From the NCBI GenBank assembly GCA_963727515.1, contig CAVSGN010000008.1:20146-84145 (forward strand): a DNA stretch of 64,000 nucleotides, read 5' to 3'. The number at the start of each line of letters is the position of its first letter. The first letter of the stretch is position 1. The translations under genes and the position numbers were made by a program. Below the pieces are notes generated by a model, which saw only the letters and a program-made list of their open reading frames with translations, was not told where the DNA came from and did no database searches. This document shows positions 19,419 through 43,323 of this stretch, piece by piece. Source of the DNA: an uncultured Thermoleophilia bacterium (GTDB taxonomy: Bacteria > Actinomycetota > Thermoleophilia > Gaiellales > Gaiellaceae).

Positions 19419-19458
19419 GATCACGGGGACGTTCACAACGAAGCCAGAGGAGAGTGAG

Positions 19459-27777: not shown

Positions 27778-28854
27778 CTACCCGAGCAGCCCGCGGCGCC
27801 GCGCGGTGTACGTCGCCTCGGAACGGGAGCTCGCGCCGAGCTTGCGGAACAGGCTGCGGGCATGCGTCTTGGCGGTCGTCTGCGAGATCCCGAGGCTGTC
27901 GGCGACCTGGCGGAACCGCATCCCGCGGTCGAGGCACGAGAGCACGTCGAGCTCGCGGGGAGTCAGCGCAGTCTCCTGCCGACGCACCCGGCGCCGCGGC
28001 AACCACGATTGTCCCCGCGAGACGGCGTCCACCGCGAGCGGCAGCGCGTCCTCGACCTCTGCGCGGAGGACGAACCCGGTCGCGCCCGCTGCGAGCGCGA
28101 CACCCAGGCTGTCGCCGCCGTCGTGCGGGGCGACGACGAGGAGAGGGGCGTCGACGCCGGCCGCGCGGAGCTCGCCGATCCAGGCGTCGATCCGCCGGCC
28201 GCCGAGCGCAAGGTCGCCGATCACGACGTCCGGTGCCCGGAGCGGGCCGGAGCGGACCGCGTCGGACGGCGAGCGCGCAAGTGCGGCGCGTGCGAGACCC
28301 GTCTCCTCGAGGAGACGGGCGATGCCGTGGCCGACGAGCGGGTCGTCATGACAGACGAGCACCGTTGTCGGGGTGATCTCGTCCGGCTGGGCGAGCGCGA
28401 GCGACAGCGGCCCGAGCAGCGGCTCCACGAGCGCGCACGCATCTGCCGCCGTCGACCCCGTCGTGTCGAAATGGAGATTGAGCGCCCCTGGTCGCCCCTG
28501 CGGATGCCGAAGGGGCAGCGACGCGCCGGAGCGGAATCCGTGCTCGCGGACGATCCTGTCGAGGGGTCGCGAGAACCCGCGCCGTTGATCGAAGTCCGGT
28601 GAGACGAAGACCTTGTCGTCGGCGGCGCTTCGGTGATGCGTCGACGTGCCGAGGGGGAAGCGCGTCCCGGGACCGAGTAGTGCCTCGCCGCGGGCCTCGA
28701 GGATCTCGAAGGCATCGTCGTCGGCATCGATCTCGGAGAACGAGACACGCGCGGCGCCGACCGCCTCGAGAATCCCGTCCGCTACCTCGGCGAGCTTCGC
28801 CTCGCCGTCCGTCAGCATCTGCCCGATGTCTGCGATCCGGTCGGTCTGGGCCAT
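27778..28854 (-). CDS. GAF + atypical receiver + LuxR-HTH transcriptional regulator
   Basis: N-terminal GAF-like region (G.RS.ASLPL, LNLHF), middle VLVCHDDPLV..PDVVIGDL..GATGFVLR, C-terminal LTPRELDVL...IS.TTAKTHARSLFRKLGASSR. Confidence 0.85.
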   Translation of the reverse strand: MAQTDRIADIGQMLTDGEAKLAEVADGILEAVGAARVSFSEIDADDDAFEILEARGEALLGPGTRFPLGTSTHHRSAADDKVFVSPDFDQRRGFSRPLDRIVREHGFRSGASLPLRHPQGRPGALNLHFDTTGSTAADACALVEPLLGPLSLALAQPDEITPTTVLVCHDDPLVGHGIARLLEETGLARAALARSPSDAVRSGPLRAPDVVIGDLALGGRRIDAWIGELRAAGVDAPLLVVAPHDGGDSLGVALAAGATGFVLRAEVEDALPLAVDAVSRGQSWLPRRRVRRQETALTPRELDVLSCLDRGMRFRQVADSLGISQTTAKTHARSLFRKLGASSRSEATYTARRRGLLG

Positions 28855-28875: not shown

Positions 28876-29193
28876 TCAGCGGGAATGCCGCCTGGCCGCG
28901 AGCGCCACTTCCTCGTCGCTCGGGCCGCCGTGCTCGAGAGCCCTGAAGGCGATCAACACCGCGCGCGGATCACGGGCGTGGCGTTGCGCCGCCAGGGTCA
29001 GCGGCTCTCGAACGGCTCCGCCGCAGTGGGCGCACGGCCAGTAGATCCGCGACATCAGCTGCGCGGCCCGCCCGTCCGGATACATCCTCAGGATCTCGAG
29101 GATCGTCGTCGAGCCGCGGATCTCGCGGCGCAGGGTGTCGCCGTCGGCAACACCCTGCGCCGGGAGAAAGCCCGGGATCGCGGTTCGGGACAC
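28876..29193 (-). CDS. Small CxxC protein, DUF1858/redox-disulfide-domain-like
   Basis: TTILEILRMYP..AAQLMSRIYWPCAHCGGAVREPLTLAAQRH resembles the DUF1858 pattern; start codon uncertain. Confidence 0.6.
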   Translation of the reverse strand: MSRTAIPGFLPAQGVADGDTLRREIRGSTTILEILRMYPDGRAAQLMSRIYWPCAHCGGAVREPLTLAAQRHARDPRAVLIAFRALEHGGPSDEEVALAARRHSR

Positions 29194-29209: not shown

Positions 29210-30633
29210 CTACACCGCCGCGTGCGCGAGGATGCTCGGCTCGGCCGATGCCATCCGCACGGCGTTCCGTGGGAGCTGGTAGCGGGCGTACGGCAGGATC
29301 GCCACCTTGGCGTCTGCGCCGTGGCGTGCCATCGCGGCTGCGAATGCCTCGTCGAGCGAGCGTCGTCGCCTCGATCCCGATGTCGGCCGCCATGGCGAGG
29401 TTCTCCTCCAGCGTCACGACCGTCAGGTGCTTGCGCGTCATCACCTCGTAGATCGGCACCCAGATGCAGCCGGCCCACATCTGGATCTCGCGCATGTGGA
29501 TGTCGTGCAGCACCTTCTGGTAGTTCTCGGTCGTCGCAGGCATGTACGGCTTCATCAGATCCATGAGCGCGAAGCCGGGGAAGTCGCCGATCGCGGTCGA
29601 GACACCGGGAGACGGGCTCGTGTAGATGATCGTGCCGCCGTCCTTGAGCACGAGATCGGCGGACATGCAGCCCCAGCCCGTGTGGAAGAAGAGATGGTCG
29701 GTCGGCGCGAAGACGCCGCAGATGACGATGTCGGCCTGCCCCTTCTCCTCGACCCAGCTGTCGTAGGCGTAGATCGCGTTGAAGCGCCGGATCGCCTCGC
29801 GGTGCGCCTCGGGGTGGGAGCCGAAGATGCAGTCGATCACGCGACCGTGCGTGTCGAGGATGACGTTCATCGTGCAGTCGAGGCCGCACATCGTCGCGAC
29901 CTCGTCGATATCCGAGCGCATCGGGCCGGCGTAGGCGCCGTAGTGCGTCTGTGGCGAGGTGACGAACGCGCAGTGATTCGACTCGACCGTCGCGTCCGAG
30001 ACGACGCCCGGCAGGATCAGCTTGCCGCCTCCCCCTGCGCCCCAGTGGTTCGCCTGCGCCTGACCGATCGTGATCTTGAGCTCGGCCGACGCCACCTCGT
30101 TGTGCAGCCAGACGGGAGTCCCGCCCGACGAGACGCCGACGAACGTGTAGACGTCCGGGTTCTGGGGGTCGTTCTGGTGGAAGGCCCAGCCGTTCGCCTC
30201 CATCCGGGCGAGGTTGTCGCGCCCGATCTTCTGCTCCATGTCCGACTCGGACATCGGGAAGACCTTGCCGTTGGCGCACACGACGCGAACGTCGCTAACT
30301 CCGGCGGCCTCGATGGCGTCGAATACAGGAGGCAGCAACTTCGAGGAGGGGGTGGGTCGAAACTGGTTGTCGATGATCACTGCGATGCTCGTCTTGCCGG
30401 AGAGAAGCGCGGCGAAGCTCGGCCCGTCGAACGGCTCGGCGAGAGCCGACGTGCCGCCTCGGTCGAGTCGCCGACCGGGGACGGCTCGTCCGGGTAGATC
30501 GCCGCGACGAGGTTGGCCGCGGGGATATCGAGCTAAGGGTGTCCCGGTGCTTCTTCGACTCGTCATCGGTCGCACCGATCGCGAGGGGATCCATCGACTC
30601 GTACGGGATCACGGCATGGTAGGTATCGCTCAT
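29210..30633 (-). CDS. LarA/DUF2088 (nickel-pincer lactate racemase superfamily) homolog; frameshifts about 30530-30450 and 29355
   Basis: IAVIIDNQFRPTP, GTPVWLHNEV, NHWGAGGGGKLILPGV, ESNH, PEAH, ADIVI, DGGTII, ILPY: LarA-like order of motifs. Confidence 0.75.
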
Positions 30634-30831: not shown

Positions 30832-31962
30832 GTGAACGATAAGACTGCACAACTCGACATCCGGCAACTCGCCCCCAAGCTCGCCGTCGGGCTCCTCGTG
30901 GGGTTCGTGCTGCTCTACGTGATCGTCCTTGCGAAGCCGGTGGACGAGTTCGGCACGGGTGGCTGGCGATCGACCAACACCGGCTCTGCGATCGACAACC
31001 CCGGGGCTCTGGTCTACACCTTGCTCGACGCGATCACGTTCGCCGGGCTCCTCTTCATCGTCGCGAGCGGCTTCTCGCTCATCTTCGGGCTCATGCGCAC
31101 CGTCAACATGGCCCACGGCTCCCTCTACCTCCTCGGCGCCTACATCGCGTACGAGGTCCAGCAGAGGATGACCGGGCAGGGCTTCTCTGTCCAGCCGACC
31201 GAGGTCAACACGTGGGAATGGGTCGTCCCTCTCCTCGTCGCGATGTCGGTCATCGCCGTCGTCGGCGTCCTGATCCAGCAGCTCTTCCTGCGTTGGAACC
31301 AGGGTCAGGATCTCCGACAGGCGCTGATCACGATCGCGATCTCGGTGATCGTCGCCGATCAGGTGATCGCTCACTTCCCGCGCAGCGTCCCCGACGGCTC
31401 GGCGCGATTCGGGGGGAACGCCGTGAGCCTCGGCTGGCCCGGCTGGACGAACCGCCTCGTCGATCTCCACGTGTGGGACACGAGCTACTCGCTCGCCCGG
31501 CTGGTCATGCTCGCGCTCGGCGTGTCGGTCGGGATCGGGCTCTGGCTCTGGCTCTACAAGACGAGGACGGGGATGGTCATCCGCGCCGGGGTCGACGACC
31601 CGCAGATGACCTCCGCGATCGGCATCAACATCCAGGTCTTCTTTGCGATCGCGTTCGCCGTCGGCGCGGCTCTCGTCGCTCTCGGCGCGACCGTCGGTAC
31701 CTCGCAGGGCAACATCTCGCAGGGCCAGGACGGGGTCTGGCTGCTGTATTCGCTCGTCGTCGTGATCATCGGCGGCATGGGCTCGCTGCTCGGCGCCGTC
31801 GCCGGGTCGCTGCTCTTCGGGCTCGTCACCGCGTTCTCCGTCACGTACCTGCCGGTTTCGGGTACCGATTGCTGCACGCAGTACTCGCCGGTCCTCACGT
31901 TCGTGCTGATGGCGGTCGTGCTCGCGTTCCGGCCGCAGGGGCTCTTCGGGAGGGCCGGATGA
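30832..31962 (+). CDS. Branched-chain amino acid-type ABC transporter permease (LivH-like)
   Basis: ASGFSLIFGLMRTVNMAHG, KTRTGMVIRAGVDD, VVIIGGMGSL.GAV, RPQGLFGR. Confidence 0.92.
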   Translation: MNDKTAQLDIRQLAPKLAVGLLVGFVLLYVIVLAKPVDEFGTGGWRSTNTGSAIDNPGALVYTLLDAITFAGLLFIVASGFSLIFGLMRTVNMAHGSLYLLGAYIAYEVQQRMTGQGFSVQPTEVNTWEWVVPLLVAMSVIAVVGVLIQQLFLRWNQGQDLRQALITIAISVIVADQVIAHFPRSVPDGSARFGGNAVSLGWPGWTNRLVDLHVWDTSYSLARLVMLALGVSVGIGLWLWLYKTRTGMVIRAGVDDPQMTSAIGINIQVFFAIAFAVGAALVALGATVGTSQGNISQGQDGVWLLYSLVVVIIGGMGSLLGAVAGSLLFGLVTAFSVTYLPVSGTDCCTQYSPVLTFVLMAVVLAFRPQGLFGRAG

Positions 31963-33021
31963 CCCTCTCCTCCACGAAGGCCCTCGTCGAGCGGAGCATC
32001 GGTGTCGGCGTGCTCGATCCTCGCGTTGCTGGCACCCGTCCTCGTCTCGGACTTCTGGCTCGACACGGTTCTCACCCAGACCTTCATCCTCGGCATCGGG
32101 GCCGCGAGCCTCGTGTTCCTCTCCGCCTACGGCGGGATGATCTCGCTGGCGCAGGCGGGTCTGATGGGCATCGCCGGATATGCGCTCGGGAACATGGTCA
32201 CCCAGAACGTGCCGGGCGGTGAGACCAAGGGGCTCCTGCTCGGGTGGAATCCGTCGCTCGCCGTCGTCCTCGCCATCCTGTTGACGGTGGGCCTCGGGTT
32301 CATCTTCGGTGCCGTCGCGTCACGGAGCTTCGGGATCTACTTCCTGATGCTCACTCTCACGTACTCGGTGATCGCGTACCTGTTCGTCAGCCAGGTGACG
32401 CAGGTCGGCGGCTTCTCACCGATCGCCGGCGTCGACGAGTACACCCCGGGATTCATCGGAGACGTCGTCAACGACCGGCAGCGGCTGTACTACGTCGCGC
32501 TCGGCGTTGCGATCGTCATCTACGGGCTGATCCGCTACCTCGTACGGACACCGTTCGGGATCTCGTTGCAGGGGATCCGCGACGAGCCTTCGCGGATGGC
32601 GTCGCTCGGCTACAACGTCGCGTTGCACCGGACTCTTGCCTTCGGCATCGGCGCGTTCGTGGCTGCGGTCGGTGGTGTCCTCTTTGCCTGGTGGTCGGGG
32701 CAGCTCTCGCCGTCGAACATCGGCCTCGCCGCGACGATCGAGTTGCTCGTGATCGCGGTGATCGGAGGGCTCGGCCGGATCGAAGGCGCCTGGCTCGGCG
32801 CGTTTGCCTACATCGTGATCAACAACGAGGTGACGAACAGGATCCCGGCCGACGGGCTGCCGGTGGTAGGCGGTACCTTCAACACGGTCATCGGCGTCGT
32901 GTTTCTGGCGATCGTGATCGCGTCCCCCGACGGACTCGTCGGGATCTGGGACAGACTTTGGGATCTCGCGCGTTCGCGAGAGCCCGAGCAGCCCGCCGCC
33001 GAGGCGAGCGCGGCAGGGTGA
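31959..33021 (+). CDS. Branched-chain amino acid-type ABC transporter permease (LivM-like; frameshift about 32010)
   Basis: GMISLAQAG, GIYFLMLTL, RTPFG.SLQGIRDEP, VIGGLG..EGAWLGA, PDGLVG. Confidence 0.88.
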
Positions 33022-33081
33022 GGAGGAGGCGGGGAAGGAGGTCGGAGTCGGCTCGATGAAGGGCTTGCAACGGAGTTCGAG

Positions 33082-33095
33082 GGAATATGTATTCC
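33082..33095. promoter_or_regulatory. Inverted repeat upstream of substrate-binding protein gene
   Basis: GGAATA-TG-TATTCC in an AT-rich 100-nt spacer, 26 nt upstream of the ATG. Confidence 0.35.
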
Positions 33096-33121
33096 AATCA
33101 TCCAACGAAGGAGGAACGGCA

Positions 33122-34528
33122 ATGAAGCGACGACAGGGGTGGGCAATCCGCCTCCTCGTCTCGATCGGGGTGATCGCGGTCGGAATCGCCGCGATCGCGT
33201 CCGTATCGATGGCGTCCTCAGCGGCGACGGGCACGGTCCGCGTCGCGATCATGAGCGACTGCAAGGGAGCCTTCGGTTTCGCGCAGGAGCTCGGAATCGG
33301 TGGCGCCCAGACTGCGTTCGCCCAGTTCGCGAAGGGCAAGGTGAAGAACAAGAAGAAGCCGTCGGCGGGCATGACCGGCATCACCGCGGGTGGCAAGAAC
33401 ATCAGCATCGTCGGCTACGGCTGCGGTGACGACACTCCGGCGACCGCCCTCAAGGAGGTTCGCCGGCTAATGCAGCAGCAGAAGGCCGACGTCCTCATCG
33501 GGCCGCTCTCGGGTGACGAGGCAGTTGCCATCGCCAACTGGGCCAAGCCGCGGCCGGCGAAGACGGTCATCATCGGCACGGCCGGGTCGCAGGATCCGAC
33601 GCTGCAGATCGCGCCGAAGAACGTGTTCCGCTACCACGGCGACGGCGCCCAGTGGAACGCAGGCATCGGTGAGATCGTCTACAAGAAGCTCGGCTGGCGC
33701 AGTGCTGCGATCATCATGGACGACTACTCGTTCGGGTGGACGTCTGCGGCAGGCATCATCGCCGACTTCTGCGCGATCGGCGGCAAGATCACGAAGCGCG
33801 TGTATCCGCCGCTGAACACGACCGACTACTCGTCGTACGTCCGCCAGTTGCCCAAGCCGGGTGACGTGGACGGCTACTTCTGGGTCGTCGGCGGCACGGG
33901 CACAGGCCCGGCGCTGAAGGCGTTCGAGCAGGCCTACGGCCCGATCAACGCGAAGCAGCATTCCGGCAACCTGTTCCTCTGGTTCCTGACCGGGAAGGAC
34001 GATGTCGCCCCGCGCATGATCGGCGCGTACGTCGGCGGCTTCGGGACGGCGCCCGGGTTGAAGGGCGTCACGGCCACAAACCAGTACCGGAAGTTCGTGG
34101 CGAAGACCTATTCGGGGATGCCCTCGGACGACGGGTTCTTCTACAACTACTACCAGGGCGCGCGCGCACTGGTTCAGGGCCTGAACGGCTCCAACGGTGC
34201 CGTGGGTGCCAAGCTGCAGGCGAACATGCCGCGGTCGATTTTCGCCCCGTTCGAGCTCTCGGACAACGGCAAGGTCAAGCTCGACGCGAACCGCCAGGCG
34301 ATCCAGGATCAGTGGCCGGTTCAGATCATCAAGGGCGCGGACGGTGGCCCGGCGATCACGCTCACCGGGTACGTCCCGAACGTGAATCAGTCGTTCGGTG
34401 GCCTGTTCACGAAGAACAGCCCGCCCCCGAGCCGCACGCAGCCTCCGTGCGTGAAGAAGAAGCTGCCGTGGCAGGGCCATATCCGTGTGGTCAAGAACGG
34501 CCGCGTTACCAAGCAGGTCATCAAGTAA
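33122..34528 (+). CDS. ABC transporter substrate-binding protein (Leu/Ile/Val-binding type)
   Basis: Signal peptide (MKRR + hydrophobic stretch + ASMA-SS), VLIGPLSG, DDYSFG, YPPLNTTDYSSY; strong SD AAGGAGG. Confidence 0.9.
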   Translation: MKRRQGWAIRLLVSIGVIAVGIAAIASVSMASSAATGTVRVAIMSDCKGAFGFAQELGIGGAQTAFAQFAKGKVKNKKKPSAGMTGITAGGKNISIVGYGCGDDTPATALKEVRRLMQQQKADVLIGPLSGDEAVAIANWAKPRPAKTVIIGTAGSQDPTLQIAPKNVFRYHGDGAQWNAGIGEIVYKKLGWRSAAIIMDDYSFGWTSAAGIIADFCAIGGKITKRVYPPLNTTDYSSYVRQLPKPGDVDGYFWVVGGTGTGPALKAFEQAYGPINAKQHSGNLFLWFLTGKDDVAPRMIGAYVGGFGTAPGLKGVTATNQYRKFVAKTYSGMPSDDGFFYNYYQGARALVQGLNGSNGAVGAKLQANMPRSIFAPFELSDNGKVKLDANRQAIQDQWPVQIIKGADGGPAITLTGYVPNVNQSFGGLFTKNSPPPSRTQPPCVKKKLPWQGHIRVVKNGRVTKQVIK

Positions 34529-34532
34529 CACG

Positions 34533-35318
34533 GTGACCGATGCAGCAACATCCGCTGCTGACGCCGGCCCGATCCTCCGCTTGCGGGGGGTCGGCCGGCG
34601 TTTCGGCGGCCTGCTCGCCGTGAGCGACGTCGACCTCGACGTCGCTCAGGGTGAGCGTCGCGTTGTGCTCGGCCCGAACGGCGCCGGCAAGACGACGCTG
34701 TTCAACCTCATCTGCGGTGACATGCCTCCGTCCGGCGGCACGATCGAGCTGTTCGGCGAGGGTGTCACCGGGCGACCCCCGCGGGCGCGCGTGAAGCTCG
34801 GCCTCGCCCGCACCTACCAGCAGTCAAAGCTCTTCCTCGGCCTGACGGTCGAGGACAGCATCTACCTCGCCATCGTCGGGGTCGAAGGGGGGCGCCTGCG
34901 ATCGATCCGCCGTCCGGGCCTCGATCGCGAGATGCGGGAGCGCGCGAGGGCAGCTGCCGGTCGCGTGGCGATCGACGGGAAGCTCGGAGACCGCGTCGGC
35001 GACCTCTCGCACGGCGAGCATCGCCAGGTCGCGATCGCGATGGCGCTCGCCGCCAACCCGAGGGTGCTGATGCTCGACGAGCCCGCCTCGGGACTGTCCC
35101 GTGGTGAGCGGGGGCTCCTCACCGACCTGTTGCTCTCGCTCGACCGGTCGATCACTCTCATCCTCATCGAGCACGACATGGACATCGCGCTCACTGTCGC
35201 GGACAGCGTGACGATGATGCACGACGGCCGCGTCATCGTCGAGGGAACGCCGGACGAGATCCGCGCCAACGAGATGGTCCACGATCTCTACCTCGGGCGC
35301 GGGCACCATCATGAGTGA
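34533..35318 (+). CDS. ABC transporter ATP-binding protein (LivG-like)
   Basis: GPNGAGKTT, LSHGEHR, MLDEPASG, IEHDMD. Confidence 0.93.
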   Translation: MTDAATSAADAGPILRLRGVGRRFGGLLAVSDVDLDVAQGERRVVLGPNGAGKTTLFNLICGDMPPSGGTIELFGEGVTGRPPRARVKLGLARTYQQSKLFLGLTVEDSIYLAIVGVEGGRLRSIRRPGLDREMRERARAAAGRVAIDGKLGDRVGDLSHGEHRQVAIAMALAANPRVLMLDEPASGLSRGERGLLTDLLLSLDRSITLILIEHDMDIALTVADSVTMMHDGRVIVEGTPDEIRANEMVHDLYLGRGHHHE

Positions 35319-36084
35319 GCAGCCGCAGGCCATGATGCCTCCTCCCGTGGCAGAGACCGAGACGTTGCTGGAGGTCGAGAACTTGAACGCCTTCTACGGA
35401 AAGGCGCGGGCTCTCGAGGATGTGAGCTTCCGAATGGCGCACGAGTCCGTCGCGATCGTAGGACGGAACGGAATGGGCAAGACGACGCTGTGCAACGCGA
35501 TCATGGGCATCGCTCCTCCGTCCGCGACCGGCTCGATTCGCTTTGCGGGCGAAGAGATCATCGGTGGTCACTCGTACCGGATCGCGCGGGATGGGATCGG
35601 CTACGTCCCGCAGGGGCGGCGTCTCTTTCCCTCGCTCACCGTCGACGAGCATCTGAGAATCGCTTCCCGGGGCGCGACGACGGACGGCGGCAGCGATTGG
35701 ACGAGGGAGAGGGTCTACGACCTCTTCCCGCGTCTTGCTGAGCGGAAGCGCAACGGTGGCGCGCAACTCTCGGGCGGCGAGCAGCAGATGGTCGCCATCG
35801 GCCGTGCGCTCGTCACGAACCCGCGCCTGCTGATCATGGACGAGCCGTCCGAGGGACTGGCCCCCGCGATCATCGAGACCATGGTCGAGACGTTCCAGCG
35901 ACTCGAGAGCGAGGGGCTCGCGATCCTCCTGATCGAGCAGAACCTCGGCGTCGCGACCGCGCTCGCAACGCGCCAGCTGATCATGGTCGCCGGAAGCATT
36001 GCCACCGAGACCACCGCTGACGTGCTCTCCGGCGATCCGGAGCTGCAGCGACGCTACCTCGGCGTGGAGCCGCTGGCCAAGTAG
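35311..36084 (+). CDS. ABC transporter ATP-binding protein (LivF-like)
   Basis: GRNGMGKTT, VPQGRRLFPSLTV, LSGGEQQM, MDEPSEGLAP, IEQN. Confidence 0.93.
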   Translation: MSEQPQAMMPPPVAETETLLEVENLNAFYGKARALEDVSFRMAHESVAIVGRNGMGKTTLCNAIMGIAPPSATGSIRFAGEEIIGGHSYRIARDGIGYVPQGRRLFPSLTVDEHLRIASRGATTDGGSDWTRERVYDLFPRLAERKRNGGAQLSGGEQQMVAIGRALVTNPRLLIMDEPSEGLAPAIIETMVETFQRLESEGLAILLIEQNLGVATALATRQLIMVAGSIATETTADVLSGDPELQRRYLGVEPLAK

Positions 36085-36116
36085 GCTGTCCCCAGCTTGA
36101 CTCTCTGCGAACCATC

Positions 36117-37036
<920 letters not shown>

Positions 37037-37037
<1 letters not shown>

Positions 37038-38254
37038 TGCCAACCGTCGTGCTCGTGGGAACGCTCGACACGAAAGGCGAGGAATATGCCTTCCTCGCCG
37101 ACCGAATCCGGGAGCAGGGGGTCGATGTCGTCCTCGTCGATGCAGGCATCATCGGGGCGCCGTTGGCGACTCCGGACGTGACGCGGGAGGAGGTCGCGGC
37201 GGCTGTCGGTGAAGACGTCGAAGCGCTCGCCGCGGCGGGTGACCGTGGCGCCGCGGTCGAGGCGATGTCGCGCGGCGCCGCCGAGATCGTCAAGCGCCTC
37301 TACGAGGATGGCAGGCTGGACGCTGTCGGGGGCCTCGGCGGTTCCGGCGGCTCGTCGCTTGCCACCTACGCGATGCGGCAGCTGCCGATCGGCGTCCCGA
37401 AGCTGATGGTCTCGACCGTCGCCTCGGGCGACACGAGCCCGTACGTCGGCTCGGTCGACGTGACGATGATGTACTCCGTCGTCGACATCGCGGGGATCAA
37501 CCAGGTGTCGGCGCAGATCATGACGAACGCTGCAGCGGCCCTCGCGGGCATGGCGAAAGCGATCGTGCCGCCGCTCGGCGAGAAGAAGCCGTTGATCACC
37601 GCGTCGATGTTCGGCGTCACGACGGCAGCGGTCACGACGGCGCGCGAGCGGCTCGAGGAGCTCGGGTACGAGGTTCTCGTCTTCCATCAGACGGGCGCCG
37701 GAGGCGGGTCGATGGAGGCGTTGATCGAGGCAGGCTTCATCGCCGGCTCGCTCGACGTGACGACGACCGAGTTCTGTGACCTGGTCGCGGGCGGCGCGCT
37801 CGTCGCCGTGCCGGAGCGTCTCGAGTCTGCCGGCAAGCGCGGGATCCCGCAGGTCGTCTCGCTCGGCGCGCTCGACATGGTCAACTTCGGCCCGATGGAC
37901 ACGGTTCCCGAGCGCTATCGCGACCGGAACCTCTACGTCCACAACCCGACGATCACCCTGATGCGGACGACACCGGACGAGTGCCGGGAGATCGCCCGGA
38001 TCATCGCCGGGAAGCTCAACGCGGCGACGGGCCCGACCGAGCTGTTCGTGCCGCTCGGGGGCGTGTCCGCGATCGCTACCGAGGGTCAGGTCTTCTACGA
38101 CGCGGAAGCGGACGCGGCGCTCTTCGGGACGATCCGTGAGCTCGTCGACACCTCCAAGGTGACGGTGCACGAGATCGACACGGACGTGAACGACCCGGCC
38201 TTCGCGCTCGCGATGGCGAACCGCCTGCACGAGCTGATCGAGGCGTCGGCATGA
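37037..38254 (+). CDS. Tm-1-like ATP-binding domain protein (UPF0261)
   Basis: [70 protein letters not shown]. Confidence 0.9.
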
Positions 38255-39072
38255 CCAGGTCCGAGGCACTCGCGCGCCTTCGCGCCCAGATCGCAGCGGG
38301 CAGCCCGATCATCGGGGCCGGCGCGGGCACCGGGCTCTCGGCGAAGCTGGCCGAGGCCGGTGGCGCCGACCTGATCATCATCTACAACTCGGGTCGCTAC
38401 CGCATGGGCGGGCGCGGCTCGCTCGCCGGGCTGATGCCCTACGGCGACGCGAACGAGATCGTCGTCGACATGTCGCGTGAGGTGCTACCGGTCGTCAAGC
38501 ACACGCCCGTGCTGGCCGGCGTCTGCGGCACCGATCCGTTCCGCCTGATGCCCGTGTTCATCGCCGAGCTGAAACGGATCGGGTTCAGCGGTATCCAGAA
38601 CTTCCCTACGGTCGGCCTGATCGACGGCACGTTCCGCGTCAATCTCGAGGAGACGGGCATGGGCTACGGCCTCGAGGTCGACGCCGTCAGGATCGCGCAC
38701 GAGCTCGATCTCCTGACCGCCCCGTACGTCTTCAGCGACGACGATGCCGCGGCGATGGCGGAGGCCGGGGCGGACGTTCTCGTCCCCCACATGGGGTTGA
38801 CGACGGGCGGCTCGATCGGCGCGGACACGGCGAAGACGCTCGACGACTGCGTCCCGTTGATCCAGGGGATGCACGACGCGGCGAAGCGCGTCAATCCCGA
38901 TGTCATCGTGCTCTGCCACGGCGGCCCGATCGCCGAGCCGGACGATGCTGCCTACATCCTCGCCCGCACGGAGGGCGTCGTCGGATTCTTCGGGGCCTCG
39001 TCGATGGAGCGGCTGCCGACCGAGGTCGCGATGACCGAGAACATGAAGCGCTTCAAGTCAATCCCCGTCTGA
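38251..39072 (+). CDS. TIM-barrel 'PEP hydrolase-like' protein (Tm-1 C-terminal homolog)
   Basis: [73 protein letters not shown]. Confidence 0.92.
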
Positions 39073-39086
39073 GGCAAGGAGGAACG

Positions 39087-39482
39087 ATGAGCAGGTTCGT
39101 GATGAAGCAGGACGTGGAGATCGCCGACTTCGATTGGGGGAGCGCCGGGATGCGGGTGGACGTGCCGAGCACGGGCTGCTCGACGTTCGTCGTCATGGAC
39201 GTCACGCTCACCCCCGGCAACTGCCACGACTTCCACAAGCACCCCGACCAGGACGAGCTGATCATCGTCAAGTCCGGGCGCGTCGTGCAGTGGCTCGACC
39301 ATGACAATGCGGAGCTCGGCCCGGGCGACTCGGTCTACATCGACAAGGATGTCGTGCACGGATCGTTCAACGACTTCGGCGAGACGGCCGAGCTGCAGGT
39401 GATCCTCGCCCCGGCGAAGGGCGAAGGCGGCTACGAGCTCGTGGACGTCGCCCAGAGCGAGCCCTGGGCGTCGCTGCGCTGA
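39087..39482 (+). CDS. Cupin domain protein
   Basis: HDFHKHPDQDELI and VVHGSFN motifs. Confidence 0.88.
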   Translation: MSRFVMKQDVEIADFDWGSAGMRVDVPSTGCSTFVVMDVTLTPGNCHDFHKHPDQDELIIVKSGRVVQWLDHDNAELGPGDSVYIDKDVVHGSFNDFGETAELQVILAPAKGEGGYELVDVAQSEPWASLR

Positions 39483-40441
39483 TGCAGGCGGTTCGCGTTC
39501 ACGACGGCGGTGAGCTTCGCCACGAGAAAGTCGACGATCCGGTCGCGGCCGCCGGTGAGGTGATCGTCGAGCTGCGGGCGGCGGGGCTGAACCGGCGGGA
39601 CATCCTCGTCGTCGGCGGAACCTATCCGTTCCCGCTGCCCCTGATCCCCGGCTCGGACGGCGCGGGGGTGCGCCGCGACACCGGCGAGGAGGTCATCATC
39701 TACCCGGCCCTCGACTGGGGAGCGAGAGAGGATGCATTCGGCCCCGACTTCCAGATTCTCGGAGGCCCGCGCGACGGCACCTACGCCGAGCTGGTGGCCG
39801 TGCCCGAGGCGAACGTGTTCCCGAAGCCGGCGCGGTTCTCGTGGGAGGAAGCGGCAGCGTTTCCGCTCGCGGCCCTGACGGCGTACCGCGCGTTGTTCTC
39901 GCGCGGTGGCCTCCGGACCGGCGAGACGGTGCTCGTGCTCGGCGCAGGGAGCGGCGTCTCCACGTTCGCCGTGCAGCTCGCGGCGCACGCAGGTGCGCGG
40001 GTTCTCGTCACGTCGTCGTCCGACGAGAAGATCGGGCAGGCGTGTGCTCTCGGCGCCGAGGGTGGCGTCAACTACACGACGGAGGACTGGGTCGCGTGGG
40101 TGAAGGAGCTCGGCGGCGCGGACCTCGTCGTCGACGCGATCGGCTCGACCTGGCCGCAGTCGCTCGACTGCCTCCTACCGGGTGGGCGCTGCGTCGTCTT
40201 CGGCGCCACCGGCGGCACCGAGGCGACGCTCCAGGTGCGACCGTTCTACTTCGGCCAGTTCTCCTTGCTCGGGACGATGATGGGCAGCCCAGCCGACTTC
40301 GAGGGCCTGCTCGGAGCGCTCGAGTCGGGCTCGTGGCGACCCGTGATCGACTCCGTCCGCCCCCTCTCCGATGCCGCCGGCGCGGTCGAGGCTATGGCGA
40401 GTGGAAACCATTTCGGCAAGCTCGTGCTCTCATGCTGCTGA
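39482..40441 (+). CDS. MDR family NAD(P)H:quinone oxidoreductase-like (zinc-binding dehydrogenase superfamily)
   Basis: AAGLNRRD, IPGSDGAG, GTYAE, TAYRAL, LVLGAGSGV, HFGKLVL. Confidence 0.88.
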   Translation: MQAVRVHDGGELRHEKVDDPVAAAGEVIVELRAAGLNRRDILVVGGTYPFPLPLIPGSDGAGVRRDTGEEVIIYPALDWGAREDAFGPDFQILGGPRDGTYAELVAVPEANVFPKPARFSWEEAAAFPLAALTAYRALFSRGGLRTGETVLVLGAGSGVSTFAVQLAAHAGARVLVTSSSDEKIGQACALGAEGGVNYTTEDWVAWVKELGGADLVVDAIGSTWPQSLDCLLPGGRCVVFGATGGTEATLQVRPFYFGQFSLLGTMMGSPADFEGLLGALESGSWRPVIDSVRPLSDAAGAVEAMASGNHFGKLVLSCC

Positions 40442-41181
40442 GCACGACGGAATGGGGAGACCCGGCGGGCAAGCCGATCGTCTGCCTCCACGGCGTCACC
40501 GGGCACGGCCGTCGGTTTCGCCGGCTCGCCGAGGAGCGCCTGCAGAGATATCGCGTCGTCGGCGTCGACTACCGCGGCCACGGCCGGTCGGGCTGGGAGC
40601 CGCCGTGGAGCGTCGAGCAGCACGTCGCCGATCTCCTCGAGACGGCGGACGCGCTCGGGATCTCGGACGCTGCCTGGATCGGGCACAGCTTCGGTGGCAA
40701 GCTCGTCGCCGAGGTAGCGGCGCGCCACCCTGACCGGGTCGTCTGCGCCGTGCTTCTCGATCCGGCCATGCAGATCGACGTTGCGGTCGCAGGAGAGCGC
40801 GCCGACCTGACGCGGGCCGACACCTCGTTCGCGACCGCAGACGAGGCGATCGACGCGCGCCTCGTGGACGGCTCGCTCTTCACGACTCCACGGGAGACGC
40901 TCGAGGAAGAGGCGCGCGAGCATCTCGTCGAAAGCCCGGACGGCCGCCTGCGCTGGCAGTTCGCGCCGGCCGCGGCGATCGTCGCCTGGAGCGAGATGGC
41001 CGCGACCACGCCTCCGTGGCCGCGGTGCTCGACGCTCGTCGTGTGCGGAGAGCGCTCGTGGATTCCGGTCTCCGTGCCGCGCACGGGTCACATCACGCGG
41101 GTTGACGTGCCGGGCGGCCATAGCGTCCTCTGGGACGACTTCGAGGCGACGGCCGACGCGATCCTGCAGTTCCTGAGCTGA
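40432..41181 (+). CDS. Alpha/beta hydrolase
   Basis: LHGVTG, DYRGHG.S, nucleophile elbow GHSFGG, GGH near C-terminus. Confidence 0.88.
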   Translation: MLLSTTEWGDPAGKPIVCLHGVTGHGRRFRRLAEERLQRYRVVGVDYRGHGRSGWEPPWSVEQHVADLLETADALGISDAAWIGHSFGGKLVAEVAARHPDRVVCAVLLDPAMQIDVAVAGERADLTRADTSFATADEAIDARLVDGSLFTTPRETLEEEAREHLVESPDGRLRWQFAPAAAIVAWSEMAATTPPWPRCSTLVVCGERSWIPVSVPRTGHITRVDVPGGHSVLWDDFEATADAILQFLS

Positions 41182-41200
41182 CGGTGGAGGGCAGCGGGTC

Positions 41201-41776
41201 GTGCCGGAGACACCCGAGCGACTCTACGAGCGGGTCGCCGAGAGCCTGATCATGCCCCCGGTCGGGGAGTGGGAGACGTTTCCCTTCGACGGTGAGATGC
41301 GACCACGACCGCTCTCGCCCCCGACCGCCGTCGATCGGCCGCGCCGTGGGGTGGGCGGGGTCGACTGCCACAGCTGCCTGGCGCCCGATGACGACTACCT
41401 GTGGGTCTCCGCCCGCTGGCGCCTGCGTGGGCTCGGAGAGCCCTCGGGCCTCCCGGTCGTCGTCCTCCTCGAGCCACGCCGGCACGTCGCAGAGCCCGGT
41501 GACCTGCCCGACGAGCTGGCGTCGGAGCTCGGCCTCATGATCACACGCGTCGAGAGGGCGGTTCGCTCGGTCGGCGAGATCGGACGCGTCCACGTCTGCC
41601 GCTGGGGCGACGGCGGCGAGCACCTGCACTGGTGGTTCATGGCCCGGCCGGCGAGGCTGCCTCAGCTGATCGGTAGCTTCGCCGCCGTCTGGGACGACAT
41701 CCTGCCGCCGACACCCGAGCACATCTGGAGGGCGAATCTCGCGCACGTCGCCCGAGAGCTGGAGTCTGGCACGTAG
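41201..41776 (+). CDS. HIT-like hypothetical protein
   Basis: CHSC near the N-terminus and RVHVCRWGDGGEHLHWWFMARP, a HIT-like HxHxW variant. Confidence 0.62.
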   Translation: MPETPERLYERVAESLIMPPVGEWETFPFDGEMRPRPLSPPTAVDRPRRGVGGVDCHSCLAPDDDYLWVSARWRLRGLGEPSGLPVVVLLEPRRHVAEPGDLPDELASELGLMITRVERAVRSVGEIGRVHVCRWGDGGEHLHWWFMARPARLPQLIGSFAAVWDDILPPTPEHIWRANLAHVARELESGT

Positions 41777-41809: not shown

Positions 41810-42367
41810 TCAGCGATCCTCCGGGAGCGACCCCTCCCGGTAGGGGGCGAAGGTCGACCGCGGTAGCCCGGCGCGGATCGACGCGTACGCCTCGGCCGGG
41901 CTCGTCGTCTCGTGGTCGACGCTCGCTCCGTGACGTGCAGCCGCGGGCGAGACCGGGTAGACGAGGCCGCCGCCGATCCCCCGGCCGCGGGCGCCGACCG
42001 CGACAACGATCGCCGGTTCGTCACCCGCCCCGACGATGACGTGAGCAGTACCGCCGGGGCAATGAAAGAAATCCCACGCCCGAAGCCGCCGTTCCTGCTC
42101 CTCCACGATCAGGATGCACTCACCTGCGACGACGAGAAACCCCTCCTGGGCGTTCTCGCGGTGGTACCTCCCGAGCGCCTCGCCGGGCTCGAGGACGCTG
42201 ATGTTGAATCCGACCTGGGAGAAGCGGCGCTTGCCTTCGAAGGTGCAGTAGGTGCCGAGCGGGCCCTCGCGCTTCCAGCGTGACGCACGGGCGTCCATGA
42301 CGAACCAGCCGTCGCCGTCGACGACGAGACCGTTCTTCGTCGCCCGGGGAAGAGCCTTGTGAGCCAC
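41810..42367 (-). CDS. Cupin domain protein
   Basis: YHRENAQEGFLVVAGECILIVE, FHCPGGTAHVIVG. Confidence 0.82.
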   Translation of the reverse strand: MAHKALPRATKNGLVVDGDGWFVMDARASRWKREGPLGTYCTFEGKRRFSQVGFNISVLEPGEALGRYHRENAQEGFLVVAGECILIVEEQERRLRAWDFFHCPGGTAHVIVGAGDEPAIVVAVGARGRGIGGGLVYPVSPAAARHGASVDHETTSPAEAYASIRAGLPRSTFAPYREGSLPEDR

Positions 42368-42391
42368 CGATTCGTCGGAGGGATCGGCCGG

Positions 42392-42847
42392 CTAGTCCGG
42401 CTTCGCGCCCATCGCCCAGATCGTGACGACGTACGCTGCGAGCAGGATGAGCGAGAGGATCATGCTCGTCCGGAGCAGGCCGCTGCCGCCACCGTTCTTC
42501 AGTTTCCGAACACCGATGCCCCCGACGATGAGGGCGATCAGGAGGAGTAACGCGCCGGCGTCGGCCGTGATGTAGCCGATGCCGATCCAGGCGGGATCCG
42601 AGAGCGCCTTGTCGAGGCCCTCCTTGCTGTAGAGCCACTCGGCGCCGATGCGCATGACGACGTACCCGGGCAGGCCGACGGCGAGAAGCGAGAAGTAGCC
42701 CATCCGAAGCATGGCTTCCCGCCCGTGGGCCAGGCCGAGCGCGAGCGCCGCCGTCATCAGGCCGCCGATGAGGATCATCGCGCCGAAGACGTGCAGGAAG
42801 AGCGGCACGTTCCAGCTGTCCGGCCGGATCGAGGCGAGCAGTGTCAT
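42392..42847 (-). CDS. Integral membrane protein, DUF2269-like
   Basis: Four hydrophobic segments, LFLHVFGAM, C-terminal WAMGAKP. Confidence 0.7.
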   Translation of the reverse strand: MTLLASIRPDSWNVPLFLHVFGAMILIGGLMTAALALGLAHGREAMLRMGYFSLLAVGLPGYVVMRIGAEWLYSKEGLDKALSDPAWIGIGYITADAGALLLLIALIVGGIGVRKLKNGGGSGLLRTSMILSLILLAAYVVTIWAMGAKPD

Positions 42848-43323
42848 GCGCCCGGCTTCCAGATCATGTCGACGAGAATGAGCACGAACGCAAGGCTCGA
42901 GAGGGCGTGCATGGCGAACGCGGTGGTCGAGTTGTTCAACGCCGACAGCTCGGCATTCGGGGCTGTCTCGCCTGCGGCCTGGAGCTCCCGCGCTCGATCA
43001 CCTGCAAGTTGGAATTCGGTACCGCTGCGGCGACCTGTCTCGAACCCGATCGCCCAGAGAACGAGTGCGATCAGGACCCAGCCGTCCCAGAGCTGGTAGC
43101 GGTCGAGTGAGATGGCGAGCCAAACCCCGAAGACGATCGTGCCGAGGAACGCGACCGCGATCACGATCTCACCGCGGCGCGCCACGTCGTTGATTCCGAC
43201 GGTCGTGTCGGGAAGGTCGGTGCGACGGAGGGAAAAGACGAGGATCCAGAAGAGCACCACCGCGCCCCCTGCCGCGACCGCGCTGAGGAGATGGAGAGCC
43301 AGAATCCAGTCGTCGAGCTGCAC
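42844..43323 (-). CDS. Integral membrane protein, DUF2269-like (tandem paralog)
   Basis: LALHLLSAV, W..IALVLW, C-terminal DMIWKPG; ATGA overlap with the next gene. Confidence 0.72.
   Translation of the reverse strand: MQLDDWILALHLLSAVAAGGAVVLFWILVFSLRRTDLPDTTVGINDVARRGEIVIAVAFLGTIVFGVWLAISLDRYQLWDGWVLIALVLWAIGFETGRRSGTEFQLAGDRARELQAAGETAPNAELSALNNSTTAFAMHALSSLAFVLILVDMIWKPGA

What the first reader, a model, noticed from the sequence alone, without database searches (positions are those of the whole stretch)
30832..41776. ABC importer linked to split Tm-1 homologs, cupin, reductase and hydrolases
A near-continuous plus-strand run: two permeases, binding protein, two ATPases, PD40 lipoprotein, Tm-1-like ATP-binding protein, TIM-barrel protein, cupin, MDR reductase, alpha/beta hydrolase and HIT-like protein. 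The two Tm-1 parts correspond to the halves of the tomato antiviral protein Tm-1, and to my knowledge their bacterial biochemical function is unassigned. The context argues for uptake and ATP-dependent catabolism of an unidentified small molecule and offers a handle to find it.
Basis: partly seen in the sequence, partly recalled or inferred. Interest (0 to 1): 0.55.

Follow-up and report, generated by a model that had tools for sequence, protein, structure and literature searches.

The report
ABC importer plus Tm-1-type enzyme cassette
This is a real, tightly packed 12-gene operon in an uncultured soil actinobacterium that joins a nutrient importer to the unfused bacterial versions of the two halves of the plant protein Tm-1 plus a small metal enzyme; the combination recurs across several phyla, but its substrate is still unknown.

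Summary
Bases 30832-41776 carry 12 plus-strand genes with five start/stop overlaps and no terminator signal above chance.

They encode two permeases, a binding protein, two ATPases, a PD40 lipoprotein, a UPF0261 protein (Tm-1 N-half), a PF09370 TIM barrel (Tm-1 C-half), a cupin, an MDR reductase, an alpha/beta hydrolase and a weakly HIT-like ORF.

In 80 loci from at least four phyla, selected by similarity to the TIM barrel:
- UPF0261 sits next to the TIM barrel in 77.
- The cupin follows in 57.
- The same Liv/Urt-type ABC genes adjoin in 40-50.
- PD40, MDR, the hydrolase and the HIT-like ORF are lineage-specific.

The claim that the bacterial function is unassigned is partly outdated. The UPF0261 member MarK was shown in 2025 to be an ATP-dependent phenol kinase. 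The window protein keeps MarK's ATP site and three acceptor-site residues but differs at four pocket positions.

Most likely the solute is imported, phosphorylated by the UPF0261 protein and processed by the phosphate-binding TIM barrel and the metal cupin. The substrate is not resolved.

The neighbouring LarA-like gene belongs to the adjacent molybdenum-enzyme cluster, not to this operon. There is no sign of a defence role.

This scan has reported the same cassette before on other DNA.

The parts
30832..31962 (+). ABC permease 1 (HAAT / Liv-Urt type)
   Evidence: Pfam BPD_transp_2, 98.8 bits. Best NCBIfam model is UrtB at 134.5 bits, below its 250 cut-off. Found in 41/80 related loci.
32002..33021 (+). 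ABC permease 2
   Evidence: Pfam BPD_transp_2, 98.7 bits. Best NCBIfam model is UrtC at 104.6 bits, below cut-off. Found in 40/80 loci.
33122..34528 (+). Solute-binding protein with N-terminal signal/anchor; start refined to ATG 33122
   Evidence: Pfam Peripla_BP_6, 100.5 bits. A ribosome-binding site precedes ATG 33122. No NCBIfam equivalog. AF2 model pLDDT 89. Closest by sequence and by fold to 4-hydroxybenzoate/vanillate-binding proteins of R. palustris (4evq, 4eyg, 4ey3, 4f06, 4evs), at only 16-22% identity.
34533..35318 (+). ABC ATPase 1 (LivG/UrtD-like)
   Evidence: ABC_tran plus BCA_ABC_TP_C. UrtD model 196 bits, below its 304 cut-off. The start lies 4 nt after the binding-protein stop.
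35311..36084 (+). ABC ATPase 2 (LivF/UrtE-like)
   Evidence: ABC_tran, 101.5 bits. UrtE model 216 bits, below its 286 cut-off. Overlaps ATPase 1 by 8 nt.
36117..37037 (+). PD40 beta-propeller lipoprotein, a variable insert
   Evidence: PD40 repeats, 142.5 bits over 5 stretches. The LLAGC lipobox is visible in the translation. Present between the ATPase and UPF0261 genes in only 11/80 loci and absent in several members of the same genus.
37037..38254 (+). UPF0261 protein: Tm-1 N-half, MarK family, probable ATP-dependent kinase
   Evidence: PF06792 plus PF23189. Tomato Tm-1 3wry at 1.9e-80 and MarK 9mpy at 1e-66. ATP-site D10-T11-K12, plus G192, H216 and H301, are kept. V193, M280, N282 and I345 differ from MarK. 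Its start overlaps the PD40 stop.
38251..39072 (+). PF09370 'PEP hydrolase-like' TIM barrel: Tm-1 C-half
   Evidence: 441 bits to PF09370. Mll9387 (2p10) at 9e-116. 58% identity to the C-half of a fused Tm-1-like protein. 79 invariant columns in 30 sequences from several phyla, including HGGP after strand 7 and GFxGASS after strand 8. ATGA overlap with the UPF0261 gene.
39087..39482 (+). Small metal cupin, third member of the conserved cassette
   Evidence: Cupin_2, 50 bits. H50, H52, E57 and H91 are invariant in 21 sequences. Lies directly downstream of the TIM barrel in 57/80 loci. Nearest solved structures are the TM1459 Mn cupin and the quercetinase C-domain, at weak E-values.
39482..40441 (+). 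MDR-family NAD(P)H oxidoreductase, lineage-specific
   Evidence: ADH_N plus ADH_zinc_N. PIG3 quinone-reductase subfamily model 198 bits, below its 297 cut-off. Present in 14/80 loci. 1-nt overlap with the cupin stop.
40432..41181 (+). Alpha/beta-fold hydrolase, lineage-specific
   Evidence: Abhydrolase_1/6. GHSFG nucleophile motif. Best NCBIfam matches are 3-oxoadipate enol-lactonase models, far below cut-off. Present in 8/80 loci. 10-nt overlap with the MDR gene.
41201..41776 (+). 191-aa ORF, weakly HIT-like; a local addition
   Evidence: GC3 0.88. Pfam HIT E 0.046, below threshold. PDB 2oik 6e-5; motif H-L-H-W-W. Found only in the closest relative, L034.

Best explanation
Bases 30832-41776 form one catabolic uptake operon. 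Its conserved core has eight genes: a five-gene Liv/Urt-type (HAAT) ABC importer and a three-gene enzyme cassette.

The cassette consists of:
- a UPF0261 protein (Tm-1 N-half);
- a PF09370 TIM barrel (Tm-1 C-half);
- a small 3His-1Glu metal cupin.

Most likely sequence of events:
1. The importer brings in a small polar organic solute, probably a hydroxy- or oxo-carboxylic acid. This is inferred.
2. The UPF0261 protein uses ATP to phosphorylate a hydroxyl or enol oxygen. This activity is shown for its relative MarK and inferred here from the conserved ATP-site and acceptor-site residues.
3. The TIM barrel binds the phosphorylated compound through TIM-like phosphate-gripper loops and converts it. 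This is inferred.
4. The cupin performs a metal-dependent isomerisation or oxygenation, before or after step 2. This is inferred.
5. The MDR reductase and the alpha/beta hydrolase are accessory steps specific to this lineage. The PD40 lipoprotein is an optional extracytoplasmic helper. The HIT-like ORF is a local passenger.

The acceptor pocket of the UPF0261 protein and the whole TIM barrel are nearly constant from Actinomycetota to Bacillota, and also in plant-type fusions. The cassette therefore probably acts on one and the same metabolite everywhere, and that metabolite differs from MarK's aromatic ketones.

My odds: about 0.75 that this is an ATP-dependent uptake and catabolism unit, and about 0.35 for the specific order kinase, then phosphate-binding barrel, with the cupin as isomerase.
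For: Operon structure: five start/stop overlaps, gaps of 39 nt or less except about 100 nt before the binding protein, and no terminator signal above shuffles.

Synteny: the same order is found across the genus. In 80 loci chosen by the TIM barrel alone, UPF0261 is adjacent in 77, the cupin follows in 57, and the ABC genes adjoin in 40-50. These loci include Thermoleophilia, Chloroflexota, Dormibacteraeota and Acidobacteriota. In L050 the ABC genes sit between the TIM barrel and the cupin, so the parts move as one unit.

Kinase inference: 229 bits to MarK and 274 bits to Tm-1. D10-T11-K12, G192, H216 and H301 match MarK D14-T15-K16, G195, H219 and H304. All are invariant or nearly so in 54 paired homologues. 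MarK's activity is documented in PMC12624787.

Phosphate-binding barrel: HGGP and GFxGASS are invariant and follow predicted strands 7 and 8. Fold neighbours after 2p10 are methylisocitrate lyase and phosphate-binding barrels such as TIM, KGPDC, TrpA, PdxS and aldolases.

Physical pairing: fusions exist in both orders (P0209, P0204). A eukaryotic UPF0261-cupin fusion also exists (P0183, seen in two transcripts).

Cupin: the metal ligands are invariant.
Against: - No activity was measured. Transcription is inferred from packing and synteny only.
- MarK works as a stand-alone homodimer without a TIM barrel, so the barrel's role is a guess.
- Fold matches of the barrel other than 2p10 are weak (TM 0.5-0.6).
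- Four of MarK's substrate-contact residues differ.
- Accessory genes around the cassette differ greatly between lineages: sugar-type, aromatic-type, 2-oxoacid dehydrogenase and amidase types. Context therefore does not converge on one substrate.
- The 80 loci are related to each other and were chosen by similarity, so the counts are not independent events.
- The ABC-ATPase/UPF0261 fusions are singletons and may be read-through artefacts.
Confidence: 0.55

Rival explanations
1. The substrate is a phenolic or heteroaromatic acid, such as a lignin- or furan-derived compound. The binding protein takes up a hydroxy-aromatic acid and the UPF0261 protein phosphorylates its ring hydroxyl as MarK does. 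The TIM barrel then uses the aryl (enol-type) phosphate. The cupin, the reductase and the lactonase-like hydrolase open and process the ring.
For: The binding protein's best sequence and fold matches are the 4-hydroxybenzoate/vanillate binders 4evq, 4eyg, 4ey3, 4f06 and 4evs. The only characterised UPF0261 enzyme is a phenol kinase, and its G195, H219 and H304 are kept here. The hydrolase's best models are 3-oxoadipate enol-lactonases. A molybdenum hydroxylase, CoA ligase and hydratase cluster lies next door. In Thermomicrobiales the cassette adjoins an FAA hydrolase, a cyclase, a Mo-hydroxylase and a PPDK_N/PEP-utiliser pair.
Against: Binding-protein identity to the aromatic binders is only 16-22%, and urea, Liv and amide binders follow closely. 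The MarK pocket residues F283, I285 and H348 are replaced by M, N and I. No ring-hydroxylating or ring-cleaving dioxygenase of a known type is present. All NCBIfam hits are far below cut-off. The same cassette sits in sugar-type contexts elsewhere.
Confidence: 0.25
2. The cassette is a non-homologous 'isomerase, kinase, lyase' end-module for a sugar acid or a cyclitol-derived keto acid. It would be analogous to KduI/KdgK/KdgA or to IolB/IolC/IolJ. Here it would be fed by the MDR dehydrogenase and by the hydrolase acting as a lactonase.
For: Recurrent neighbours in other lineages are xylose-isomerase-like TIM barrels (best models IolO, psicose epimerase, hydroxypyruvate isomerase, IolE), Gfo/Idh/MocA dehydrogenases, creatininase/IolN-like hydrolases, GlcDEF-like 2-hydroxyacid oxidases and SDRs. 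The barrel's nearest characterised folds include C-C lyases and sugar-phosphate enzymes. Earlier notes of this scan reached a similar reading on other genomes.
Against: None of those sugar-type genes is in this window's operon. The importer is of the amino-acid/urea/aromatic-acid type, not a CUT1/CUT2 sugar type. All family hits are below curated cut-offs. No dehydratase is present.
Confidence: 0.25
3. The substrate is a small nitrogen-containing amide or ureide. A Urt-like importer takes it up and ATP-dependent activation precedes hydrolysis.
For: All four membrane and ATPase parts score best against urea-transporter (Urt) models. Amidase or RidA-amidase genes adjoin the importer region in 14-16 of 80 loci, and homologues lie 9-11 kb upstream in the window. 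Creatininase-family genes are near the cassette in 7 loci.
Against: Every Urt score is below cut-off, and the binding protein matches no UrtA model. Nothing in the cassette resembles a known ATP-dependent amidohydrolase. The amidase is not in this operon.
Confidence: 0.1
4. The Tm-1-type pair is not an enzyme pair here. Instead it is a sensor or regulator of the importer, or an antiviral factor like tomato Tm-1.
For: Tomato Tm-1 acts by binding viral replication proteins. The 2016 paper calls PF09370 a 'signal transduction' TIM barrel (PMC5028733). ABC-ATPase/UPF0261 fusions exist.
Against: There are no PADLOC matches. All conserved neighbours are metabolic. Catalytic-type residues are invariant. 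The fusions are singletons. MarK is a bona fide enzyme.
Confidence: 0.04

Closest known systems
MarK, multiple aromatic kinase of Novosphingobium aromaticivorans (UPF0261; PDB 9MPY; PMC12624787)
   Same: Same Pfam architecture (PF06792 plus PF23189) and full-length alignment at 1e-66. The ATP-site D-T-K and the acceptor-site Gly, His and His (G195, H219, H304) are conserved.
   Different: MarK is a stand-alone homodimer next to a biotin carboxylase and a phosphatase. The window protein is translationally coupled to a PF09370 TIM barrel and a cupin, behind an ABC importer. Pocket residues T196, F283, I285 and H348 are V, M, N and I here. Activity was not tested.
Tomato Tm-1 and plant/algal Tm-1-like fusion proteins (PDB 3WRV-3WRY; PMC5028733)
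   Same: The window's two proteins align end to end with the two halves: 274 bits to the Tm-1 N-region, and 43% and 58% identity to the halves of fused P0209. The pocket residues V, M, N and H are shared with Tm-1.
   Different: They are separate genes, which is the usual bacterial state, and they sit in a catabolic operon. The antiviral role of Tm-1 is a plant-specific binding function. The native enzymatic role of Tm-1-like proteins is unknown.
Mll9387 of Mesorhizobium loti (PDB 2P10, 'putative phosphonopyruvate hydrolase')
   Same: About 64-70% identity over the full length of the TIM barrel, and the top fold match.
   Different: It is a structural-genomics entry with no assigned function, so it adds no mechanism.
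Liv/Urt (HAAT, TC 3.A.1.4) ABC importers, including the R. palustris aromatic-acid binding proteins (4EVQ, 4EYG, 4F06)
   Same: Five-component layout and the same Pfam families. The binding protein is nearest to the benzoate-derivative binders by sequence and by fold.
   Different: No curated equivalog cut-off is reached. The binding protein is about 100 residues longer and shares only 16-22% identity. The ligand is unknown.

Membership tests
UPF0261 family (Pfam PF06792 + PF23189) | Both subdomains matched above the gathering score | tested here: met
   225.9 and 299 bits against a cut-off of 27. NCBIfam PRK02399.1-2 scores 568.8 bits against a cut-off of 335.
MarK-type aromatic kinase | ATP-site Asp-Thr-Lys (D14, T15, K16) | tested here: met
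   D10, T11 and K12 align to it. All three are invariant in 54 paired homologues.
MarK-type aromatic kinase | Acceptor-site G195, H219 and H304 | tested here: met
   G192, H216 and H301 align to these. They are conserved in 54/54, 54/54 and 51/54 sequences.
MarK-type aromatic kinase | Aromatic-ketone pocket T196, F283, I285 and H348 | tested here: not met
   The window has V193, M280, N282 and I345. These replacements are themselves conserved among the paired homologues.
MarK-type aromatic kinase | ATP-dependent phosphorylation of a phenolic hydroxyl, giving ADP | not testable with these tools
   Needs an enzyme assay.
Tm-1 / Tm-1-like protein | UPF0261 region followed by a PF09370 TIM barrel in a single polypeptide | tested here: not met
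   Two genes with a 4-nt ATGA overlap. Both halves are homologous to the fusion.
PF09370 PEP_hydrolase-like TIM barrel | Full-length match above the gathering score | tested here: met
   441.3 bits over model positions 2-267 of 267.
PEP mutase / isocitrate lyase superfamily enzyme | Close fold match to a characterised member and its catalytic motifs | tested here: inconclusive
   Methylisocitrate lyase is the first non-2p10 hit, but at TM 0.46-0.54 and 16-17% identity (ranks 7-10). Generic phosphate-binding barrels score alike.
HAAT-family ABC importer | Two BPD_transp_2 permeases, a Peripla_BP_6 binding protein and two LivG/F-type ATPases | tested here: met
Urea transporter UrtABCDE | Scores above the NCBIfam equivalog cut-offs, and a UrtA-type binding protein | tested here: not met
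   UrtB 134/250, UrtC 105/296, UrtD 196/304, UrtE 216/286 (score/cut-off). No UrtA match.
Metal-dependent cupin (Cupin_2) | HxH...E and ...H metal ligands | tested here: met
   H50, H52, E57 and H91 are invariant in 21 sequences.
HIT superfamily (last ORF) | Pfam HIT above threshold and an HxHxH triad | tested here: not met
   14.8 bits against a cut-off of 21.5. The motif is H-L-H-W-W.
Known anti-phage defence systems | Match to a PADLOC model | tested here: not met
   No matches for seven proteins of the run.

The most novel reading that the evidence does not exclude
The UPF0261 / PF09370 / cupin triad may be a still undescribed ATP-dependent catabolic step. It would act on one and the same small metabolite from soil bacteria to plants, and would be the ancestral, non-antiviral function of Tm-1. 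In many bacteria it would be hard-wired to a dedicated Liv/Urt-type importer, so the imported solute is trapped by phosphorylation. The binding protein of this operon would then report the long-sought substrate of the whole Tm-1 family.
Probability: 0.35. Interest if true: 0.65.

Novelty: new variant of a known kind. Interest (0 to 1): 0.45.

Why it matters
Tm-1-like proteins occur throughout land plants and in thousands of bacteria. In the literature I could search, only one stand-alone relative, MarK, has a known reaction. No work addresses what the paired kinase-like and TIM-barrel form does.

An operon in which this pair is fixed behind its own importer gives a direct experimental route. 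First find the ligand of the binding protein, then test it as the kinase substrate. Success would name a widespread soil catabolic pathway and the native biochemical role of a plant resistance protein.

The locus is not unique. The same cassette is common, and this scan has already noted it on other genomes. Its value is as one good, complete example rather than as a singular discovery.

Tried and rejected
I replaced them with 80 fetched loci, my own ORF calling and clustering.
- An alignment-based locus search with 36 diverse UPF0261 proteins failed because no stretch was conserved enough. The TIM barrel was used as the query instead.
- I first read the divergent LarA-like gene (29210-30633, minus strand) as part of the unit. 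It co-occurs with the cassette in the genus: 26 genomes have both, 3 only LarA, 2 only the barrel, 9 neither. I rejected this reading. In all 23 genomes where both genes lie on one contig, LarA-like sits within about 2.5 kb of the molybdenum-hydroxylase gene. That includes genomes without the cassette (G006, G014, G055) and genomes where the cassette is elsewhere (G012, G021, G009, G001, G044).
- ABC-ATPase/UPF0261 fusion proteins looked like Rosetta-stone evidence. They are singletons or two-member clusters on long contigs and may be read-through artefacts.
- No riboswitch or other Rfam family lies in the leader or the first genes. The leader folds no better than shuffles (z -0.13). There is no inverted-repeat operator in the 198-nt divergent region.
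- There are no defence-system matches.
- Foldseek of the TIM barrel gave no specific enzyme beyond 2p10.
- Literature searches for PF09370, 'PEP hydrolase-like', Tm-1-like and MarK homologues found no functional work on the paired form.

Full report
**Where the window comes from.** The window is part of a 3.44-Mb, 8-contig, 92%-complete genome with about 70% G+C. Near-identical loci carry the titles of uncultured Thermoleophilia/Gaiellaceae MAGs of the 'MFD' series.

**Observation.** Twelve plus-strand ORFs fill 30832-41776.
- two BPD_transp_2 permeases;
- a Peripla_BP_6 binding protein;
- two ABC ATPases;
- a PD40 propeller with an LLAGC lipobox;
- a UPF0261 protein;
- a PF09370 'PEP hydrolase-like' TIM barrel;
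- a Cupin_2 protein;
- an MDR oxidoreductase;
- an alpha/beta hydrolase with a GHSFG motif.

The twelfth, the 191-aa ORF, is only weakly HIT-like. Pfam HIT gives E 0.046. Its one PDB hit, 2oik, scores 6e-5. The triad reads H-L-H-W-W.

Third-position G+C is 0.85-0.95 in each called frame. Start codons with ribosome-binding sites put the binding protein at 33122, the first ATPase at 34533, UPF0261 at 37037 and the hydrolase at 40432. Five junctions overlap by 1-10 nt. The others are 4-39 nt, apart from about 100 nt before the binding protein. Terminator-like and promoter-like hits do not exceed shuffled controls. This is the anatomy of a single operon. Transcription itself was not measured.

**The two Tm-1 halves.** The UPF0261 protein aligns over its full length to tomato Tm-1 residues 9-426 (1.9e-80) and to MarK, PDB 9MPY (1e-66). 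The TIM barrel matches Mll9387 (2P10) at 9e-116. Against one fused 743-aa Tm-1-like protein (P0209), the two window proteins align to residues 24-419 (43% identity) and 474-740 (58% identity). Separate genes are the usual bacterial state, and the plant protein is a later fusion (PMC5028733). 'Split' should therefore be read as 'unfused'.

**Is the linkage conserved?** Yes.
- In 17 loci from relatives, the order is permease, permease, binding protein, ATPase, ATPase, [PD40], UPF0261, TIM barrel, cupin, [MDR], hydrolase. It recurs through the genus with the bracketed genes variable.
- I then fetched 80 loci from a species-level genome collection, using only the TIM barrel as query. They span Thermoleophilia, other Actinomycetota, Chloroflexota, Acidobacteriota, Dormibacteraeota and Bacillota.
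- A tblastn map shows UPF0261 beside the barrel in 77 of 80, the cupin directly after it in 57, and homologues of the five ABC genes in 40-50.
- The other genes are rarer: PD40 in 11, MDR in 14, hydrolase in 8, HIT-like ORF in 1.
- In L050 the ABC genes lie between the barrel and the cupin, which shows the parts travel as one unit.
- These loci are related to each other and were chosen by similarity, so the counts describe breadth and are not independent events.

**What is known about the families.** MarK of Novosphingobium aromaticivorans is a stand-alone UPF0261 homodimer. In 2025 it was shown to phosphorylate the phenolic hydroxyl of acetovanillone and related aromatics with ATP, giving ADP. 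The authors call it the first catalytic function in the family (PMC12624787). The heterodimeric kinases AcvAB and HpeHI belong to another family. I found no functional work on PF09370 or on the paired form.

**Residue-level comparison with MarK.**
- Conserved: D10-T11-K12 match the ATP-site D14-T15-K16. G192, H216 and H301 match the acceptor-site G195, H219 and H304.
- Different: the other pocket residues are V193, M280, N282 and I345, where MarK has T196, F283, I285 and H348.
- In 54 UPF0261 proteins that sit next to a PF09370 barrel, these positions are themselves strongly conserved: V in 45, M in 48, N in 52, H in 51 and I in 41.
- Tomato Tm-1 shows the same V, M, N and H in the printed alignment.

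The paired, Tm-1-type proteins therefore share a pocket that differs from MarK's. It is constant across phyla, which suggests a single common substrate rather than many.

**The TIM barrel.** It is unusually conserved: 79 invariant columns in 30 sequences, and 70-97% identity to the window protein for all but one of them, a 52%-identical sequence from L068. The AF2 model has pLDDT 84. After 2P10, the Foldseek neighbours are methylisocitrate lyases and a series of phosphate-binding barrels (triose-phosphate isomerase, KGPDC, tryptophan synthase alpha, PdxS, aldolases). All are at TM 0.5-0.6. The invariant HGGP (223-226) and GFxGASS (245-251) follow predicted strands 7 and 8. That is where TIM-type barrels grip a phosphate. 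This resemblance is my own reading of the motifs, not a tested property. It fits a barrel that receives the kinase's phosphorylated product.

**The cupin.** H50, H52, E57 and H91 are invariant, H47 is nearly so, and there is an N-terminal W17-G18 motif. Its closest solved relatives are the Mn cupin TM1459 and the quercetinase C-domain, at weak E-values. A eukaryotic UPF0261-Cupin_5 fusion seen in two transcripts (P0183) is independent support for a UPF0261-cupin partnership.

**The importer.** Its permeases and ATPases score best against urea-transporter (Urt) models, but all below cut-off. The binding protein matches no curated model. By sequence and by fold (model pLDDT 89), it is nearest to the R. 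palustris 4-hydroxybenzoate/vanillate binders. Identity is only 16-22%, and urea, Liv and amide binders follow closely. This is a weak pointer to an aromatic or other organic acid.

**Context elsewhere.** Clustering of 1191 neighbouring ORFs and family scans of representatives show that the cassette keeps very different company in different lineages:
- GlcDEF-like 2-hydroxyacid oxidases (19 loci);
- xylose-isomerase-like TIM barrels with IolO, psicose-epimerase, hydroxypyruvate-isomerase or IolE as best models;
- Gfo/Idh/MocA dehydrogenases;
- creatininase/IolN-like hydrolases with a second, unpaired UPF0261 gene;
- RidA-amidase genes and a ThDP enzyme upstream of the importer;
- a 2-oxoacid dehydrogenase complex in Solirubrobacterales;
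- in Thermomicrobiales, an FAA hydrolase, a cyclase, a Mo-hydroxylase and a PPDK_N/PEP-utiliser pair.

Homologues of the ThDP enzyme and of the Rid and amidase genes lie at about 17.7-21.8 kb in the window. This is where they would precede the importer if the intervening minus-strand block were absent. Context therefore supports hydroxy- or oxo-acid chemistry in general. It does not converge on a sugar-type, aromatic or amide substrate.

**The LarA-like gene.** I first took the divergent LarA-like gene as part of the unit. It is not. In all 23 genomes of the genus where both genes lie on one contig, it sits within about 2.5 kb of the molybdenum-hydroxylase large subunit. That includes genomes lacking the cassette or carrying it elsewhere. 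It is within 10 kb of the TIM barrel in only about 11 of 26. My test agrees with that assignment.

**Defence.** No PADLOC model matches any of seven proteins of the run, and all conserved neighbours are metabolic. A defence role like that of tomato Tm-1 is not supported.

**Mechanism and odds.** I put about 0.75 on an ATP-dependent uptake and catabolism operon. I put about 0.35 on the specific order: import, phosphorylation of a hydroxyl or enol oxygen by the UPF0261 protein, conversion of the phospho-compound by the TIM barrel, and the cupin acting as isomerase or oxygenase. For substrate class my odds are roughly 0.25 phenolic or heteroaromatic acid, 0.25 sugar-acid or cyclitol-derived acid, 0.1 amide or ureide, and the rest something else. 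Only the kinase chemistry of the family (through MarK) is shown. Everything else is inferred.

**Novelty.** All parts belong to known families, and the unfused arrangement is described. The paired form's reaction is unknown. I found no paper describing the fixed link to a Liv/Urt-type importer and a cupin. The same cassette has already been reported by this scan on other genomes (e1-3329559, e1-4203024, e1-3016040, e1-4607829, e1-4652033, e1-2533894). This locus is a good, complete example rather than a unique one.

Noticed in passing
window 29210-30633 (minus strand): The LarA-like gene is broken in this assembly by three single-base indels relative to the closest intact orthologue (L034), at about 30534, 30447 and 29361. 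Orthologues are intact, at 474-478 aa. This is either a pseudogene or long-read sequencing error. The 12-gene operon next to it shows no frame breaks.
   Followed up: yes
window 29210-30633 (minus strand); orthologue L015:16681-18105: This LarA homologue keeps the cofactor-tethering Lys (GGGK), the Ni-ligand His (SNH) and one catalytic His (NHW). At the position of LarA His108 it has GKVF instead of GxHR. LarC was found in only 1 of 41 genomes of the genus (over the family cut-off; a second match lay below it), while the LarA-like gene is present in 30 of the 41. Published single-His LarA homologues lack the other histidine, His174 (PMC12611868). It may be an NPN-independent or otherwise unusual LarA variant.
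   Followed up: partly
window 28906-29181 (minus strand): A small conserved ORF of about 105-114 aa lies between the LarA-like gene and the response regulator. It is 72% identical to the gene that follows LarA-like in relatives and carries a C-x-H-C-G-G motif. No NCBIfam model matches it.
   Followed up: partly
window 27778-28854 (minus strand): A GAF / receiver / LuxR-type response regulator is inserted between the LarA-like unit and the molybdenum-hydroxylase genes. It is not at this place in most relatives.
   Followed up: no
window 17748-21788 (plus strand): Homologues of a ThDP enzyme (PRK08199 type) and of Rid/amidase genes lie here. In many relatives these directly precede the same ABC genes. 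The ThDP match is split over three reading frames in tblastn, which may indicate indels.
   Followed up: partly
P0160, P0207, P0237 (public proteins, not in the window): Proteins of 718-755 aa fuse an ABC ATPase to a full UPF0261 region. Each is a singleton or two-member cluster from long contigs. They may be read-through artefacts, or real import-coupled kinases.
   Followed up: partly
L067, L070, L076, L081, L082, L108, L111: In several Thermoleophilia, Acidobacteriota and Chloroflexota loci, a second UPF0261 gene without a TIM-barrel partner sits beside a creatininase/IolN-like gene, an FAD oxidase and xylose-isomerase-like barrels. It lies a few genes from the paired cassette.
   Followed up: partly
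L071, L086, L088 (Thermomicrobiales): Here the importer and cassette are followed by a GntR regulator, a cyclase, a PPDK_N protein, CoxG, an FAA hydrolase, a PEP-utiliser protein and a distant Mo-hydroxylase. The PPDK_N/PEP-utiliser pair recalls two-component dikinases of the AcvAB/HpeHI kind.
   Followed up: no
window 41810-43323 (minus strand): Three genes converge on the operon end: a second Cupin_2 protein, a 151-aa ORF with no family, and a DUF2269 membrane protein. The last two are conserved only in the closest relatives.
   Followed up: no
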